In this document: in pieces, positions 2,876-6,389 of the stretch
Position numbering within the stretch: position 1 is the stretch's first letter
Layout of the letters: every line of letters begins with the position of its first letter
IMG/VR virus record: IMGVR_UViG_2609460344_000008
DNA from: a virus
Taxonomy: Duplodnaviria; Heunggongvirae; Uroviricota; Caudoviricetes
Reading direction: 5' to 3' (one strand)
DNA length: 23,647 nucleotides
The notes under the pieces: model-generated
The model's input: the letters and a program-made list of their open reading frames with translations, nothing else
Databases searched by the model: none
Told to the model about the DNA's origin: nothing
Position numbers and translations under genes: made by a program

Positions 2876-4813
2876 GTGACTCTTAAACGGGCCTGTTCCC
2901 TGCTGACGGTGAAATCCTTCAGTGAGGATGAACGGGTGATCACCGGGATTGCGTCAACGCCTTCTCCGGATCGGGATGGTGACATCCTGGAGCCGGAGGG
3001 CGCGGAGTTTGGCAGTGCGATCCCGTTTCTCTGGCAGCATGACCATTCCCGCCCGGTGGGGCAGTGTACGGTGCGCCGGGTCAGCGAAGGGCTGGAAATC
3101 ACGGCAACACTGGTGAAGCCCGTACCGGATATGCCGTCGCAACTGGCTGCCCGGCTGGATGAGGTCTGGGCGGCCATTAAGACCGGGCTGGTCAGGGGGC
3201 TGTCCGTGGGCTTCCGTCCCCATGAATACACCTTTCTGGACGGAGGCGGACTGCATTTTCTGCGCTGGGAACTGATGGAGGTGTCTGCCGTCACCGTGCC
3301 CGCGAATGCGGAATGCACCATCCGGACCATTAAATCTTACGACCGCCCGTTTTCTGCCGCGTCCGGCAACCGGAAACCGGTGGTGAAAATCGCATCTTCT
3401 GCCGGCGCTGCGGCACAGTCAACAACCGTTTTTCATAAGGAAAAGACCATAATGAATATTGGCGAACAGATTAAAAGTTTTGAAAACAAGCGTGCAGCGC
3501 TGGCAGCCTCCCTTGAGGAGGTCATGACCAAAGCCGCAGAGGAAGGGCGCACGCTGGATGTGGAGGAGGAAGAGCATTACGACAACACCGCAGCGGAAAT
3601 CCGTCAGGTGGATGCGCACCTGAAGCGCCTGCGTGAACTGGAAGCCGGTAAGGCCGCCACGGCGCAGCCGGTGAAACAGGCCGGTAACGGGAATGTGGCC
3701 GCGGTGGCTTCTGCGCCGGTGATCCGTGTGGAGCAGAAACTGGATAAGGGGATTGGCTTCGCCCGCTTTGCCAAATCGCTGGCTGCGGCTAAAGGCGTCC
3801 GATCTGAAGCCCTGGAAGTGGCCCGTCGTCAGTATCCGGATGACAGTCGTCTGCATCATGTCCTGAAATCGGCAGTGGGCGCGGGGACCACCACGGATCC
3901 GCAGTGGGCAGGCAGCCTGTCTGAATATCAGGAATACGCACAGGACTTTATTGATTACCTGCGTCCGCAGACCATTATCGGGCGATTTGGTCAGGGCGGG
4001 ATCCCTGCACTTCGTCAGGTGCCATTCAATATCCGTGTGCACGCCCAGGTGTCCGGCGGTGCTGCCGGCTGGGTGGGTGAGGGTAAGGCAAAACCCCTGA
4101 CGAAGTTTGATTTTGAATCCATCACCTTCAGTCATGCGAAGGTGTCGGCCATTGCGGTACTGACGGAAGAATTGATCCGTTTTTCCAGTCCGGCTGCTGA
4201 TGCACTGGTCCGTAATGCGCTGGCGGAAGCGGTGGTGGCGCGTCTGGATACAGACTTTGTGGACCCGAAAAAAGCCGCAGTGGCAGATGTCTCCCCGGCG
4301 TCCATCACCCATGATGTGAAGGGCACGGCATCAACCGGTAACCCGGATGCGGATGCAGAGGCTGCGTTTGGACAGTTTGTGGCAGCAAACCTGCAGCCCA
4401 CCGGTGCGGTCTGGCTGATGTCCAGCACCAATGCCCTGGCACTGTCCATGCGTAAAAATGCGCTGGGTCAGAAGGAATACCCGGACATGACCCTGCTGGG
4501 TGGCTCCTTCCAGGGGCTGCCGGTGATTGTCTCCCAGTACGTGGGTGACCAGCTGGTGCTGGTGAATGCCCCGGATATTTATCTGGCGGATGACGGCGGC
4601 GTGGCAGTGGATATGTCCCGCGAGGCATCACTGGAAATGCAGTCTGAGCCGGGCGGCGACAGTACCACGCCGTCCCCGGTGGAGCTGGTTTCCATGTTCC
4701 AGACAGGCAGCGTGGCCATCCGTGCGGAGCGCTGGATCAACTGGCGTCGTCGCCGTACCGCGGCGGTGGCGGTGATCACCGGAGTGAACTACGGCAGTGC
4801 GTCCGGCGGCTGA
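2876..4813 (+). CDS. Fused prohead protease (HK97 gp4-like, N-terminal ~170 aa) / coiled-coil scaffold-like linker / HK97-fold major capsid protein (C-terminal)
   Basis: N-terminus ...GIASTPSPDRDGDILEPEGAEFGSAIPFLWQHDHSRPVG...GLSVGFRP...WELMEVSAVTVPANAE matches prohead protease motifs; middle region is charged and helical; C-terminus ...LVLVNAPDIYLADDGGVAVDMSREASLEMQ...VSMFQTGSVAIRAERWINWRRRR matches HK97-family capsid C-termini. Confidence 0.88.
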   Translation: MTLKRACSLLTVKSFSEDERVITGIASTPSPDRDGDILEPEGAEFGSAIPFLWQHDHSRPVGQCTVRRVSEGLEITATLVKPVPDMPSQLAARLDEVWAAIKTGLVRGLSVGFRPHEYTFLDGGGLHFLRWELMEVSAVTVPANAECTIRTIKSYDRPFSAASGNRKPVVKIASSAGAAAQSTTVFHKEKTIMNIGEQIKSFENKRAALAASLEEVMTKAAEEGRTLDVEEEEHYDNTAAEIRQVDAHLKRLRELEAGKAATAQPVKQAGNGNVAAVASAPVIRVEQKLDKGIGFARFAKSLAAAKGVRSEALEVARRQYPDDSRLHHVLKSAVGAGTTTDPQWAGSLSEYQEYAQDFIDYLRPQTIIGRFGQGGIPALRQVPFNIRVHAQVSGGAAGWVGEGKAKPLTKFDFESITFSHAKVSAIAVLTEELIRFSSPAADALVRNALAEAVVARLDTDFVDPKKAAVADVSPASITHDVKGTASTGNPDADAEAAFGQFVAANLQPTGAVWLMSSTNALALSMRKNALGQKEYPDMTLLGGSFQGLPVIVSQYVGDQLVLVNAPDIYLADDGGVAVDMSREASLEMQSEPGGDSTTPSPVELVSMFQTGSVAIRAERWINWRRRRTAAVAVITGVNYGSASGG

Positions 4814-4857
4814 GTCTGATAAGGAGGACGGGAGGCGTGCGCCTCCCGTAACAGGTT

Positions 4858-5079
4858 ATGGCAAAGATCCGATATCTGCAGGGCACGCATGATGCCCGGG
4901 CCGGGGATATCCGTGATGTGGCACAGCCGTGTGCGGAGGTGCTGGTTCGCCTGGGAAAGGCGGAGTACATCACGGTGCGACGTCCGGCAGGTCAGAAAAA
5001 GAAACGTGATGCGGAGCATGGCGAATGTGGAACCTTTTACGGCGAACCCGAAAAAACCAGAAATCAGGACGTGACGTAA
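4858..5079 (+). CDS. Hypothetical small protein (73 aa) between capsid and portal; uncertain
   Basis: ATG ORF preceded by a GC hairpin (about 4830..4847); no recognisable family; overlaps the portal ORF start by 55 nt. Confidence 0.3.
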   Translation: MAKIRYLQGTHDARAGDIRDVAQPCAEVLVRLGKAEYITVRRPAGQKKKRDAEHGECGTFYGEPEKTRNQDVT

Positions 5080-6389
5080 GAGAGGCGGGCTGGACCAGCC
5101 TGTTTCAGGCGGTGGCTGAGCCCTTTTCCGGCGCCTGGCAGCAGGGCGTGAAAGCCGATCCTGAAGCCGTCCTCTCCTTTCATGCGGTGTTTGCATGTAT
5201 TTCGCTGATATCCCAGGATATCGCCAAAATGCGGCTGCGTCTTATGCAGACGGATGCGCATGGGATACGCAGGGAAACGCGCCGGGGGGATATTGCCCGC
5301 CTCTGTCGTCGTCCCAACGCCCAGCAGAACCGCATCCAGTTTTTTGAACTGTGGCTGAACGCCAAACTGCGTCACGGCAATACGGTGGTGCTGAAAATCC
5401 GTAATGCCCGGGGGCAGATCAAAGAACTGCGTATTCTGGACTGGAGCCGGGTTGAACCTCTGGTGGCGGATGACGGCGAGGTGTTCTACCGCATCACGCC
5501 GGACCGGAACTGCGGGATCACGGAGGCGGTGACGGTGCCTGCCCGGGAAGTGATCCACGACCGGTTTAACTGTTTTTTTCATCCGCTTATAGGATTGCCG
5601 CCGGTGTATGCCGCCGGGCTGGCGGCCACGCAGGGGCATCATATTCAGGAAAATTCGACGTCTTTTTTCAGAAATGGCGGCAGGCCGTCCGGGGTGATTG
5701 AGATCCCCGGCAGTATTACGGAAGAAAATGCGAAAAAACTGAAGAGCAACTGGGACAGCGGGTATACAGGCGAAAATGCGGGGAAAACGGCCATTCTGAG
5801 CAACGGGGCAAAATACAACCCCACGACGTTTTCACCTGTGGATGCGCAGACGGTGGAACAACTGAAGATGACCGCTGAAATTGTCTGTTCGGTGTTCCGT
5901 GTCCCGGCCTACAAGATTGGCGTGGGACAACCGCCTTCCAGTGACAACGTGGAGGCGCTGGAGCAGCAGTATTATTCCCAGTGTCTGCAGACGCTGATTG
6001 AGTCCATTGAACTGTTACTGGATGAGGCGCTGGAAACGGGGGAAAACGAGAGTACAGAATTTGATGTCACCACGCTGCTGAGAATGGACAGTGAGCGGCG
6101 CATGAAAACGCTGGGGGATGCGGTGAAAAATACGCTTCTCACGCCCAATGAGGCCCGTAAACGGGAGAACCTGCCGCCCCTGGCCGGCGGTGATGCACTG
6201 TATCTTCAGCAGCAGAACTACAGTCTGGAGGCGCTGTCCCGTCGTGATGCCCGTGAGGATCCGTTCTCGTCTGCCGGGAAAACAGTTTCATCACAGCTGC
6301 CTGACGGCGCATCTGACGGTAATAAGGCAATCAGTGAAACAGAGCGTGATGCGGTGAAAGCGATGTTCAGGGGGATACTGAGAAAATGA
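5025..6389 (+). CDS. Portal protein (HK97-family portal); start codon uncertain
   Basis: Region ...FFRNGGRPSGVIEIPGSITEENAKKLKSNWDSGYTGENAGKTAILSNGAKYNPTTFSPVDAQTVEQLKMTAEIVCSVFRVPAYKIG... matches conserved portal core; 454 aa. Confidence 0.85.
   Translation: MWNLLRRTRKNQKSGRDVREAGWTSLFQAVAEPFSGAWQQGVKADPEAVLSFHAVFACISLISQDIAKMRLRLMQTDAHGIRRETRRGDIARLCRRPNAQQNRIQFFELWLNAKLRHGNTVVLKIRNARGQIKELRILDWSRVEPLVADDGEVFYRITPDRNCGITEAVTVPAREVIHDRFNCFFHPLIGLPPVYAAGLAATQGHHIQENSTSFFRNGGRPSGVIEIPGSITEENAKKLKSNWDSGYTGENAGKTAILSNGAKYNPTTFSPVDAQTVEQLKMTAEIVCSVFRVPAYKIGVGQPPSSDNVEALEQQYYSQCLQTLIESIELLLDEALETGENESTEFDVTTLLRMDSERRMKTLGDAVKNTLLTPNEARKRENLPPLAGGDALYLQQQNYSLEALSRRDAREDPFSSAGKTVSSQLPDGASDGNKAISETERDAVKAMFRGILRK

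What the first reader, a model, noticed from the sequence alone, without database searches (positions are those of the whole stretch)
2876..6389. Single-gene protease-scaffold-capsid fusion and non-canonical head gene order (terL, protease/MCP, portal)
The 645-aa product combines HK97 gp4-like prohead protease motifs at the N-terminus, a charged coiled-coil-like middle, and an HK97-fold capsid C-terminus. The portal gene follows rather than precedes it, unlike the canonical terminase-portal-protease-capsid order. This implies self-processing of the capsid precursor.
Basis: partly seen in the sequence, partly recalled or inferred. Interest (0 to 1): 0.45.

Follow-up and report, generated by a model that had tools for sequence, protein, structure and literature searches.

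The report
Fused prohead protease–capsid gene, known type
This E. coli prophage makes its head-maturation protease and its major capsid protein from one gene placed ahead of the portal gene; the arrangement is real but already annotated in Shiga-toxin phages and common across bacteria, and the gene probably also makes a protease-free capsid protein from a conserved internal start.

Summary
ORF 2876-4813 (645 aa) carries an HK97-type prohead protease domain (aa ~20-154), a disordered linker, a helical delta/scaffold domain (aa 193-262) and an HK97-fold capsid body. The portal gene (5025-6389) follows it.

It is not new. The window is 97.9-100% identical to E. coli prophages and Stx phages (2851, YYZ-2008, BP-4795). 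BP-4795 ORF56 is annotated 'putative major head protein/prohead protease'. Full-length relatives are numerous across many bacterial lineages. The order terL, protease(-)MCP, portal holds in 76 of 80 related loci. 'Protease-scaffold-capsid fusions' are also described in actinobacteriophages.

It lies where stand-alone capsid genes of unfused relatives start (21 of 80 loci). In fused relatives this ATG and an upstream Shine-Dalgarno motif are conserved, unlike other conserved internal Met codons.

My best reading is a nested two-start gene. A 69-kDa protease-capsid fusion would carry the protease into the procapsid, and a 48-kDa capsid protein would be made from the internal start. This resembles lambda C/Nu3 or herpesvirus UL26/UL26.5. 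It is inferred from comparative sequence only; no protein data were available.

Interest is low to moderate.

The parts
591..1154 (+). Terminase small subunit gene
   Evidence: Pfam Terminase_2 1.2e-8; PHROG 641 3.5e-68
1151..2812 (+). Terminase large subunit gene (terL)
   Evidence: Pfam TerL_ATPase and TerL_nuclease; PHROG 9 7.6e-145
2837..2864 (+). Terminator-like hairpin plus T-run between terL and the protease-capsid gene
   Evidence: Consensus scan: 7-pair stem followed by TTTTATTTTC. This is a pattern match only.
2865..2870 (+). Shine-Dalgarno AGGAGG for the full-length product, 5 nt before GTG 2876
   Evidence: Read from the sequence; duplex energy with the anti-SD is -10.3 kcal/mol
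2876..4813 (+). Protease-delta-capsid ORF, 645 aa, 69.0 kDa
2933..3337 (+). Prohead protease core (aa 20-154). The inferred catalytic His55 is codon 3038-3040 and Ser110 is codon 3203-3205.
3338..3451 (+). Disordered linker (aa 155-192). In unfused relatives this is the C-terminal tail of the protease.
   Evidence: pLDDT 31-36; gap-rich, variable columns; the protease ORFs of unfused relatives end here
3437..3441 (+). Internal Shine-Dalgarno-like AAGGA, 10 nt before ATG 3452
   Evidence: Read from the sequence. Duplex energy is -6.2 kcal/mol, the 12th percentile of in-frame positions in this ORF. The motif is kept in Enterobacterales relatives in different codon phases.
3452..3454 (+). In-frame internal ATG (M193), the proposed start of a 453-aa, 48.2-kDa delta-capsid protein
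   Evidence: M193 is invariant in 28 Enterobacterales homologues. Among 65 ORFs then treated as fused, 48 have ATG at the exact column and 54 have ATG within 8 alignment columns. Stand-alone capsid genes begin at this position. The TIGR01554 model starts at aa 204.
3452..3661 (+). Delta/scaffold-like helical domain (aa 193-262)
   Evidence: AF2 helices aa 195-222 and 229-261, pLDDT 84-92; 37% charged residues, pI 4.85
3662..3748 (+). Disordered segment (aa 263-291), the inferred zone of the maturation cleavage
   Evidence: pLDDT below 50 for aa 266-286. The conserved EKGIxFAR motif starts at about aa 290. The cleavage site itself is inference only.
3749..4810 (+). Capsid protein proper: N-terminal helices (aa 293-331) and the HK97-fold body (aa 367-642)
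4828..4849 (+). GC-rich 9-bp hairpin directly after the capsid stop codon, with no U-tract
   Evidence: MFE -20.8 kcal/mol, z -2.8. Comparably strong hairpins follow the capsid stop in about 60% of related loci.
4858..5079 (+). Small 73-aa ORF between the capsid and portal genes (equivalent to BP-4795 ORF57); function unknown
   Evidence: PHROG 829 3.7e-39; annotated as a hypothetical protein in BP-4795
5025..6389 (+). Portal protein gene (454 aa)
   Evidence: Pfam Phage_portal 1.5e-81; TIGR01537 portal_HK97 4.8e-105
6386..7447 (+). Conserved repeat-containing protein after the portal; its start overlaps the portal stop (ATGA); function unknown
   Evidence: PHROG 1289 and 2271; 162-nt tandem repeat at 6611-6981; homologues follow the portal in most related loci
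7444..8130 (+). Head-tail adaptor (gp6-like, 7444-7770) and head closure protein (7780-8130), which close the head module
   Evidence: Pfam Phage_connect_1 and Phage_HCP; PHROG 40 and 25

Best explanation
ORF 2876-4813 is a genuine in-frame fusion of an HK97-type (S78, assemblin-fold) prohead protease gene to a major capsid gene that carries an HK97-type delta domain. It sits in a widespread head module ordered terS, terL, protease(-)capsid, small ORF, portal, repeat protein, connectors.

Shown. The domains are present and the catalytic His55 and Ser110 are conserved. The fusion joint lies exactly at the start codon of the capsid gene. The gene order is conserved. Fused and unfused states have interchanged many times.

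Inferred. The gene works as a nested pair. Ribosomes starting at GTG 2876 would make a 69-kDa protease-delta-capsid protein. Ribosomes starting at the internal ATG 3452 would make a 48-kDa delta-capsid protein. Both would co-assemble on the portal through the shared delta and capsid parts. This would place a sub-stoichiometric number of covalently tethered protease domains inside the procapsid. After assembly the protease would cut away itself, the linker and the delta domains, in cis and in trans. The cut probably falls in the disordered segment at about aa 263-291 and would leave a mature subunit of about 33-37 kDa that expands and is filled with DNA.

The hairpin after the capsid stop codon may hold up capsid mRNA and lower expression of the portal gene downstream.
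For: Domains and fold.

Active-site conservation: H55 and S110, along with D32, R33, E135 and S137, are invariant in 32 homologues at 36-53% identity.

Identity with functional, isolated phages: 99.8% to phage 2851 and 97.9% to BP-4795, whose ORF56 is annotated 'major head protein/prohead protease'.

Breadth: 12515 representative clusters match at E<=1e-3, and most of the best 150 are 630-680 aa and aligned over the full length.

Synteny: the portal lies downstream of the capsid gene in 76 of 80 loci, at a median distance of 342 nt.

Fusion joint: 21 of 80 loci have separate protease and capsid ORFs. Their capsid genes start M(K)T(I)AEQI at the equivalent of M193, often with an ATGA or GTGA overlap or an in-frame stop 3-6 codons upstream.

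Internal start, comparative test:
- At the M193 column, 48 ORFs have ATG. The median anti-SD duplex energy is -6.4 kcal/mol and 48% reach -7 or better.
- Six other conserved internal Met columns have medians of -1.7 to -3.7 and 0-7% reach -7.
- Of 38388 background in-frame positions, 4.1% reach -7.
- The annotated starts have a median of -6.0 and the unfused capsid starts -5.7.
- 45 of the 48 have an SD core 2-11 nt upstream (44 of them at 5-11 nt), in all three codon phases.

Within Enterobacterales, ATG and AAGGA persist through indels and codon-phase shifts, and M193 is invariant in 28 of 28 sequences.

All-fused clades at deep divergence keep the site, and parsimony gives at least 13 fused/unfused switches.

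Precedent: nested protease/scaffold genes in lambda, HSV-1 and HFTV1 are described in bioRxiv 10.64898/2026.09.13.751334.
Against: There is no protein, ribosome-profiling or N-terminal data for this gene or any relative; none turned up in the library searches.

In this window the internal SD is only moderate: AAGGA, spacing 10, 12th percentile of the ORF.

Frequent switching between fused and unfused states could by itself keep the capsid start site alive without it being used in the fused state.

SD energies say nothing about the ratio of the two products.

The cleavage site, the stoichiometry and the role of the hairpin are inference.

The tree behind the switch count is a rough neighbour-joining tree.

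The mapping of H55 and S110 onto the HK97 gp4 catalytic residues rests on my knowledge of that family, not on an alignment made here.
Confidence: 0.6

Rival explanations
1. Single-product model. Only the 645-aa polyprotein is made. Every capsid subunit carries its own protease, and maturation is self-processing of about 415 protease-capsid fusions per T=7 shell. The internal ATG and SD are an unused relic of the ancestral capsid gene start.
For: The ORF is continuous and its own start has a strong SD. Fusion and fission are frequent, so relic signals could persist. Actinobacteriophage papers describe such genes simply as fusions.
Against: The ATG and SD are retained across fused clades at 35-55% protein identity. 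Their SD strength equals that of true starts, while other conserved Met codons sit at background. The motif survives indels and codon-phase shifts. That pattern indicates selection on the nucleotides.
Confidence: 0.3
2. Artefact model. The 645-aa ORF merges two real genes through a sequencing or assembly frameshift or a lost stop, or the prophage is defective at this locus.
For: About a quarter of related loci really do have two genes. Odd-length variants exist in databases, such as the 1079-aa terL-capsid read-through P0001.
Against: The stretch 2876-6389 (this ORF plus the portal gene) is at least 99% identical in 732 complete E. coli records. The ORF is present in isolated, plaque-forming or inducible Stx phages. 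ORFs of 644-648 aa recur in Salmonella, Enterobacter, Klebsiella, Serratia and Pantoea, and 59 of 80 distant loci are also fused.
Confidence: 0.02
3. Early autocleavage model. The fusion is translated as one chain, but the protease cuts the linker soon after synthesis. Free protease and free delta-capsid protein then behave exactly as in HK97, and the fusion serves only to couple expression 1:1.
For: The linker aa 155-192 is disordered and variable. In unfused relatives it is the protease tail.
Against: A 1:1 protease-to-capsid ratio is far from the sub-stoichiometric protease content of HK97 proheads (my knowledge of HK97, not tested here). The model does not explain the conserved internal SD and ATG. 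HK97-type proteases are thought to become active only on assembly (family knowledge).
Confidence: 0.08

Closest known systems
ORF56 of Stx1 phage BP-4795 (Marienburgvirus) and the equivalent genes of phages 2851, YYZ-2008, 1717 and Stx2a_WGPS6
   Same: Essentially the same gene and module. DNA identity over 2876-6389 is 97.4-99.8%. The order is the same: terS, terL, ORF56, ORF57, portal, ORF59. The annotations read 'putative major head protein/prohead protease' or 'major capsid protein'.
   Different: Nothing material. ORF59 is longer in BP-4795 (1386 nt against 1062 nt), consistent with a different repeat number. None of the annotations seen here marks an internal start.
HK97 gp4 (prohead protease) and gp5 (major capsid protein with delta domain)
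   Different: In HK97 the two are separate genes in the order portal, protease, capsid. Here they are one ORF placed before the portal. Sequence identity in the aligned capsid folds is about 10-14%.
[quoted passage not shown]
   Same: The same three-part architecture in one gene, described in the literature (PMC7302621, PMC5513430, PMC9671004).
   Different: These are different sequence lineages: PHROG 4523 matches only at 1.7e-11 and NCBIfam NF045541 scores 54 bits against a cut-off of 525. There the fusion is linked with very small genomes. Whether those genes also have internal starts was not examined.
Nested protease/scaffold gene pairs: lambda C/Nu3, HSV-1 UL26/UL26.5, HFTV1 gp17/gp17.5
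   Same: The proposed logic is the same. A long product carries the protease. A more abundant short product comes from an in-frame internal start. The shared C-terminal part brings the protease into the procapsid.
   Different: In those systems the shared part is a separate scaffold protein. Here it would be the capsid protein itself with its delta domain. For this gene the internal initiation is inferred, not measured.
Unfused members of the same module (for example Burkholderia phages vB_FUBS1 and vB_SBP33, Moraxella Mcat phages, and Sphingomonas and Paraburkholderia prophages)
   Same: Homologous protease and capsid genes (35-51% identity) in the same order: terL, protease, capsid, portal.
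   Different: A stop codon or a 1-nt frame offset separates the protease from the capsid gene.

Membership tests
HK97-type prohead serine protease (MEROPS S78 / Pfam PF04586) | Significant match to the family profile | tested here: met
   PF04586 scores 34.7 bits against a cut-off of 21, over aa 48-152. TIGR01543 scores 46.4 bits, below its equivalog cut-off of 59.
HK97-type prohead serine protease (MEROPS S78 / Pfam PF04586) | Conserved catalytic His and Ser | tested here: met
   H55 (WQHD motif) and S110 (GLSVGF motif) are invariant in 32 homologues at 36-53% identity. Their equivalence to HK97 gp4 His65 and Ser114 rests on my knowledge of the family.
HK97-type prohead serine protease (MEROPS S78 / Pfam PF04586) | Herpesvirus-assemblin-like fold | tested here: met
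HK97-type prohead serine protease (MEROPS S78 / Pfam PF04586) | Proteolytic removal of the scaffold/delta domain in proheads | not testable with these tools
   Needs virion or prohead protein analysis.
HK97-fold major capsid protein with delta domain (PF05065 / TIGR01554) | Profile match | tested here: met
   PF05065 scores 52.7 bits (cut-off 24.2). TIGR01554 scores 78.3 bits (cut-off 27.5).
HK97-fold major capsid protein with delta domain (PF05065 / TIGR01554) | HK97 fold | tested here: met
HK97-fold major capsid protein with delta domain (PF05065 / TIGR01554) | N-terminal helical delta (scaffold) domain in place of a separate scaffold gene | tested here: met
   Helices aa 195-222 and 229-261 at pLDDT 84-92. 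No separate scaffold gene was found among the ORFs examined from terS to the head-tail connectors.
HK97-fold major capsid protein with delta domain (PF05065 / TIGR01554) | Lys-Asn isopeptide chainmail cross-links | not tested
   No residue-level structural alignment to HK97 K169/N356/E363 was made.
Canonical HK97-like head gene order (terL, portal, protease, capsid) | Portal gene lies between terL and the protease | tested here: not met
   The order here is terL 1151-2812, protease-capsid 2876-4813, portal 5025-6389. The same holds in 76 of 80 related loci.
Nested two-start protease/scaffold genes (lambda C/Nu3 type) | In-frame internal start codon with a ribosome-binding site, conserved among relatives | tested here: met
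   ATG 3452 with AAGGA upstream. In the comparative SD test, 48% of sites reach -7 kcal/mol against 4.1% of background positions and 0-7% at other conserved Met codons.
Nested two-start protease/scaffold genes (lambda C/Nu3 type) | Two protein products with a common C-terminus are actually made | not testable with these tools
   Needs ribosome profiling, a western blot or N-terminal proteomics.
BP-4795/2851-type lambdoid Stx prophage late region | Near-identical DNA and gene content | tested here: met
   97.4-99.8% identity over 100% of 2876-6389 in the 20 listed phage records (93 phage records match in all), and 100% identity to the E. coli TOE17 chromosome.

The most novel reading that the evidence does not exclude
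The fused protease-capsid genes of this very large prophage lineage are two-start nested genes. The capsid protein's own start codon and ribosome-binding site are kept under selection inside the fusion ORF. The phage therefore makes a minority of protease-tethered capsid subunits and a majority of plain ones. Lineages switch freely (at least 13 times in 81 sequences) between covalent tethering and a free protease. This would extend the lambda C/Nu3 and herpesvirus UL26/UL26.5 principle from scaffold proteins to the capsid protein itself. I found no report of it in the searchable literature.
Probability: 0.55. Interest if true: 0.4.

Novelty: already known. Interest (0 to 1): 0.22.

Why it matters
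As a finding about this window it matters little. The gene, its dual annotation and its position before the portal gene have been in public Stx-phage records for two decades, and the architecture is common.

The comparative result has some value for phage assembly biology. It gives a concrete, cheap test (initiation profiling, or an M193/SD mutant in an inducible Stx lysogen) of how HK97-type proteases are dosed and targeted when fused to the capsid protein.

It also suggests that annotation pipelines should record a second product for these genes.

The repeated switching between fused and unfused states offers a natural experiment on covalent versus non-covalent protease delivery.

Tried and rejected
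- AF2 with a shallow alignment of 28 sequences at 73-78% identity gave an unusable model (mean pLDDT 41). It was replaced by the diverse-alignment model.
- Liu & Mushegian 2004 ('Displacements of prohead protease genes...'), Duda & Teschke 2019 and Suhanovsky & Teschke 2015 are not held. Their content is not used; only the first title was seen, in a reference list.
- The PAJU2/Ab31/MD8 trail, the CBASS preprint and the Sp5 morphogenesis paper contained nothing about this gene type.
- My first fused/unfused count (64/16) was wrong. Five loci have an in-frame stop hidden inside a single tblastn segment. The count was corrected to 59/21 and the tree was redone.
- The frameshift or merged-gene artefact was considered and rejected.
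- The protein after the portal (6386-7447) gave no informative Pfam, NCBIfam or PDB match.
- The promoter scan found no sigma-70-like site in 2700-6500.
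Full report
**What is there**

The window is the late (virion) region of a lambdoid E. coli prophage. The stretch 2876-6389 is 100% identical to the chromosome of E. coli TOE17. It is present in 1255 of 5426 complete E. coli genomes. It is 99.8% identical to Stx phage 2851, 99.7% to YYZ-2008 and 97.9% to BP-4795, and 93 phage records match in all.

ORF 2876-4813 is uninterrupted and encodes 645 aa. It starts at GTG 2876, 5 nt after AGGAGG.

Profile searches place both domains in the one polypeptide:
- Peptidase_S78 at aa 48-152 (34.7 bits, cut-off 21).
- Phage_capsid at aa 386-635 (52.7 bits, cut-off 24.2).
- TIGR01554 major_cap_HK97 at aa 204-584.
- PHROG 617 over the full length at 3e-261.

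terL lies upstream (1151-2812). The portal gene lies downstream (5025-6389; Phage_portal 1.5e-81).

**Anatomy**

An AlphaFold2 model built from a diverse 32-sequence alignment (mean pLDDT 74.6) divides the protein as follows:
- A beta-rich protease core, aa 20-154.
- A disordered linker, aa 155-192 (pLDDT about 31-36).
- Two long helices, aa 195-222 and 229-261 (pLDDT 84-92). This segment is 37% charged residues and is the delta/scaffold domain.
- A second disordered stretch, aa 266-286.
- A small helical region, aa 293-331.
- A confident HK97-fold body, aa 367-642.

H55 and S110 are invariant across homologues at 36-53% identity. From knowledge of the S78 family I take them to be the catalytic pair. 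The protease is therefore under selection as an enzyme.

**How common it is**

A search of 1.84 billion cluster representatives returned 12515 hits at E<=1e-3. Most of the 150 best (38-56% identity) are 630-680 aa and aligned end to end.

A scan of one genome per species returned 80 loci. They come from Alpha-, Beta- and Gammaproteobacteria and from metagenome bins labelled as other phyla.

In 76 of these loci the portal gene lies downstream of the capsid gene, at a median distance of 342 nt. It is usually followed by a homologue of the repeat protein at 6386-7447. Salmonella, Serratia and metagenomic relatives show the identical layout with called genes. A published transcript from a Symbiopectobacterium phage also shows it (PMC8156552).

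The 'non-canonical' order is thus the fixed order of a large, old head-module lineage. It is not an oddity of this phage.

**Fused and unfused relatives**

After I corrected my first count, 59 of the 80 loci have the fused ORF and 21 have separate protease and capsid genes. In 16 of these the two genes are in different frames. In 5 they are split by an in-frame stop.

In the unfused loci the capsid gene starts M(K)T(I)AEQI, at the position equivalent to M193 of the window protein. The start often overlaps the protease stop as ATGA or GTGA, or lies 3-6 codons after an in-frame stop. Stand-alone capsid representatives in the protein library also begin at query residue 193-196.

The fusion joint is therefore exactly protease stop to capsid start, and one point mutation or 1-nt indel switches the state. 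On a neighbour-joining tree of the capsid part, the unfused forms are scattered among the fused ones. Parsimony needs at least 13 switches. The gene order is the same in both states, so fusion and order are independent features.

**The internal start**

In the window, ATG 3452 (M193) is preceded by AAGGA at 3437-3441.

Of the 65 ORFs first treated as fused (64 loci plus the window; five were later reclassified as unfused), 48 have ATG at exactly this column. Most of the rest have ATG or GTG within a few codons.

The upstream 17 nt pair with the anti-Shine-Dalgarno sequence at the following strengths:

| Site class | Median duplex energy (kcal/mol) | Fraction at -7 or better |
|---|---|---|
| M193 column in the ORFs treated as fused (48 ATG) | -6.4 | 48% |
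| Annotated starts of the protease or fused ORF (all loci) | -6.0 | not computed |
| Capsid starts in unfused loci | -5.7 | not computed |
| Six other conserved internal Met columns | -1.7 to -3.7 | 0-7% |
| All in-frame positions (n = 38388) | -2.5 | 4.1% |

Of the 48, 45 carry an SD core 2-11 nt upstream (44 of them at 5-11 nt). The core falls in all three codon phases. The encoded residues vary (PKEG, PEEG, PKKG, AQEA, QGA and others) while the purine motif stays.

Within Enterobacterales the linker has indels and many substitutions. ATG and AAGGA persist there, again in different codon phases. M193 is invariant in 28 of 28 sequences.

This is the pattern of a ribosome-binding site under selection, not of a conserved peptide or a decaying relic.

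**Most likely mechanism**

I conclude, at about 0.6 confidence, that the gene is a nested pair.
- A 69.0-kDa protease-delta-capsid protein is made from GTG 2876.
- A 48.2-kDa delta-capsid protein is made from ATG 3452 (masses).

Both share the delta and capsid parts and would co-assemble on the portal. A minority of subunits would then carry a tethered protease into the procapsid interior. This replaces the non-covalent targeting used when the protease is free.

After assembly the protease would remove itself, the linker and the delta domains. The disordered segment at aa 263-291, just before the conserved EKGIxFAR motif, is my guess for the maturation cut.

The logic is that of lambda C/Nu3, HSV-1 UL26/UL26.5 and HFTV1 gp17/gp17.5. 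Here the capsid protein itself takes the scaffold's role.

Everything from 'two products' onward is inference. No protein or ribosome-profiling data were available.

An early-autocleavage variant (0.08) and an artefact (0.02) are less likely.

**Comparison with what is known, and novelty**

The identical gene is annotated 'putative major head protein/prohead protease' in BP-4795, with the same gene order. Other records carry similar labels.

NCBIfam has a model named 'prohead protease/major capsid protein fusion protein', built for another lineage.

The actinobacteriophage literature explicitly describes 'protease-scaffold-capsid fusion' genes (PMC7302621, PMC5513430, PMC9671004).

The finding as stated is therefore already known. 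I found no report of the conserved internal start in six full-text searches. That library lacks most subscription journals, so I cannot claim priority. A specialist would find the idea plausible rather than surprising.

**Verdict**

- Observation: confirmed.
- Interpretation: partly supported.
- Novelty: already known.
- Interest: 0.22.
- Most novel reading not excluded: the two-start nested gene with repeated switching between covalent and free protease delivery (probability about 0.55, interest if true about 0.4).

Noticed in passing
window 6386-7447 (+): A 353-aa protein whose start overlaps the portal stop (ATGA). It contains a 162-nt tandem repeat (2.3 copies, 93% matching) at 6611-6981. 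Homologues follow the portal gene in most of the 80 related loci. PHROG 2271 (859 aa, labelled 'portal protein') spans portal plus this protein, so fused versions seem to exist. The only domain hint is a weak CBM_5_12 match at the C-terminus, and there is no PDB match. Function unknown; possibly a head accessory or decoration protein.
   Followed up: partly
window 4858-5079 (+): A 73-aa ORF between the capsid and portal genes (equivalent to BP-4795 ORF57; PHROG 829, unknown function). It overlaps the portal start by 55 nt. No sequence homologue was detected at this position in distant loci, although a gap of about 250-400 nt is usual there.
   Followed up: partly
window 4828-4849 (+): A GC-rich 9-bp hairpin directly after the capsid stop codon (-20.8 kcal/mol, z -2.8), with no U-tract. 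In about 60% of related loci the 60-70 nt after the capsid stop fold better than 90% of windows in the same locus, often with a T-run. This could act as an mRNA stabiliser or a partial terminator ahead of the portal gene.
   Followed up: partly
window 2837-2864 (+): A terminator-like hairpin (GAACCGC/GCGGTTT) with a T-run between terL and the protease-capsid gene. This is a pattern match only, and the number of such sites in the region is not above the shuffled expectation.
   Followed up: no
window 14208-15344 (+): A porin gene (Pfam Porin_1, 2.8e-142) in a low-GC segment (41-49% against about 57%). It is inserted between the gpM-like and gpL-like minor tail genes and looks like a moron cargo gene.
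   Followed up: no
window 16298-16834 (-) and 17394-18323 (+): A ClpP-like ORF on the opposite strand and a KilA-N/P22_AR_C antirepressor-like gene are inserted between the gpL-like and gpK-like tail genes. They lie in the low-GC segment too.
   Followed up: no
proteins P0001, P0123, P0132: Database proteins of 1079-1094 aa join a terL part to the protease-capsid ORF. They are probably read-through or assembly artefacts and were not examined.
   Followed up: no
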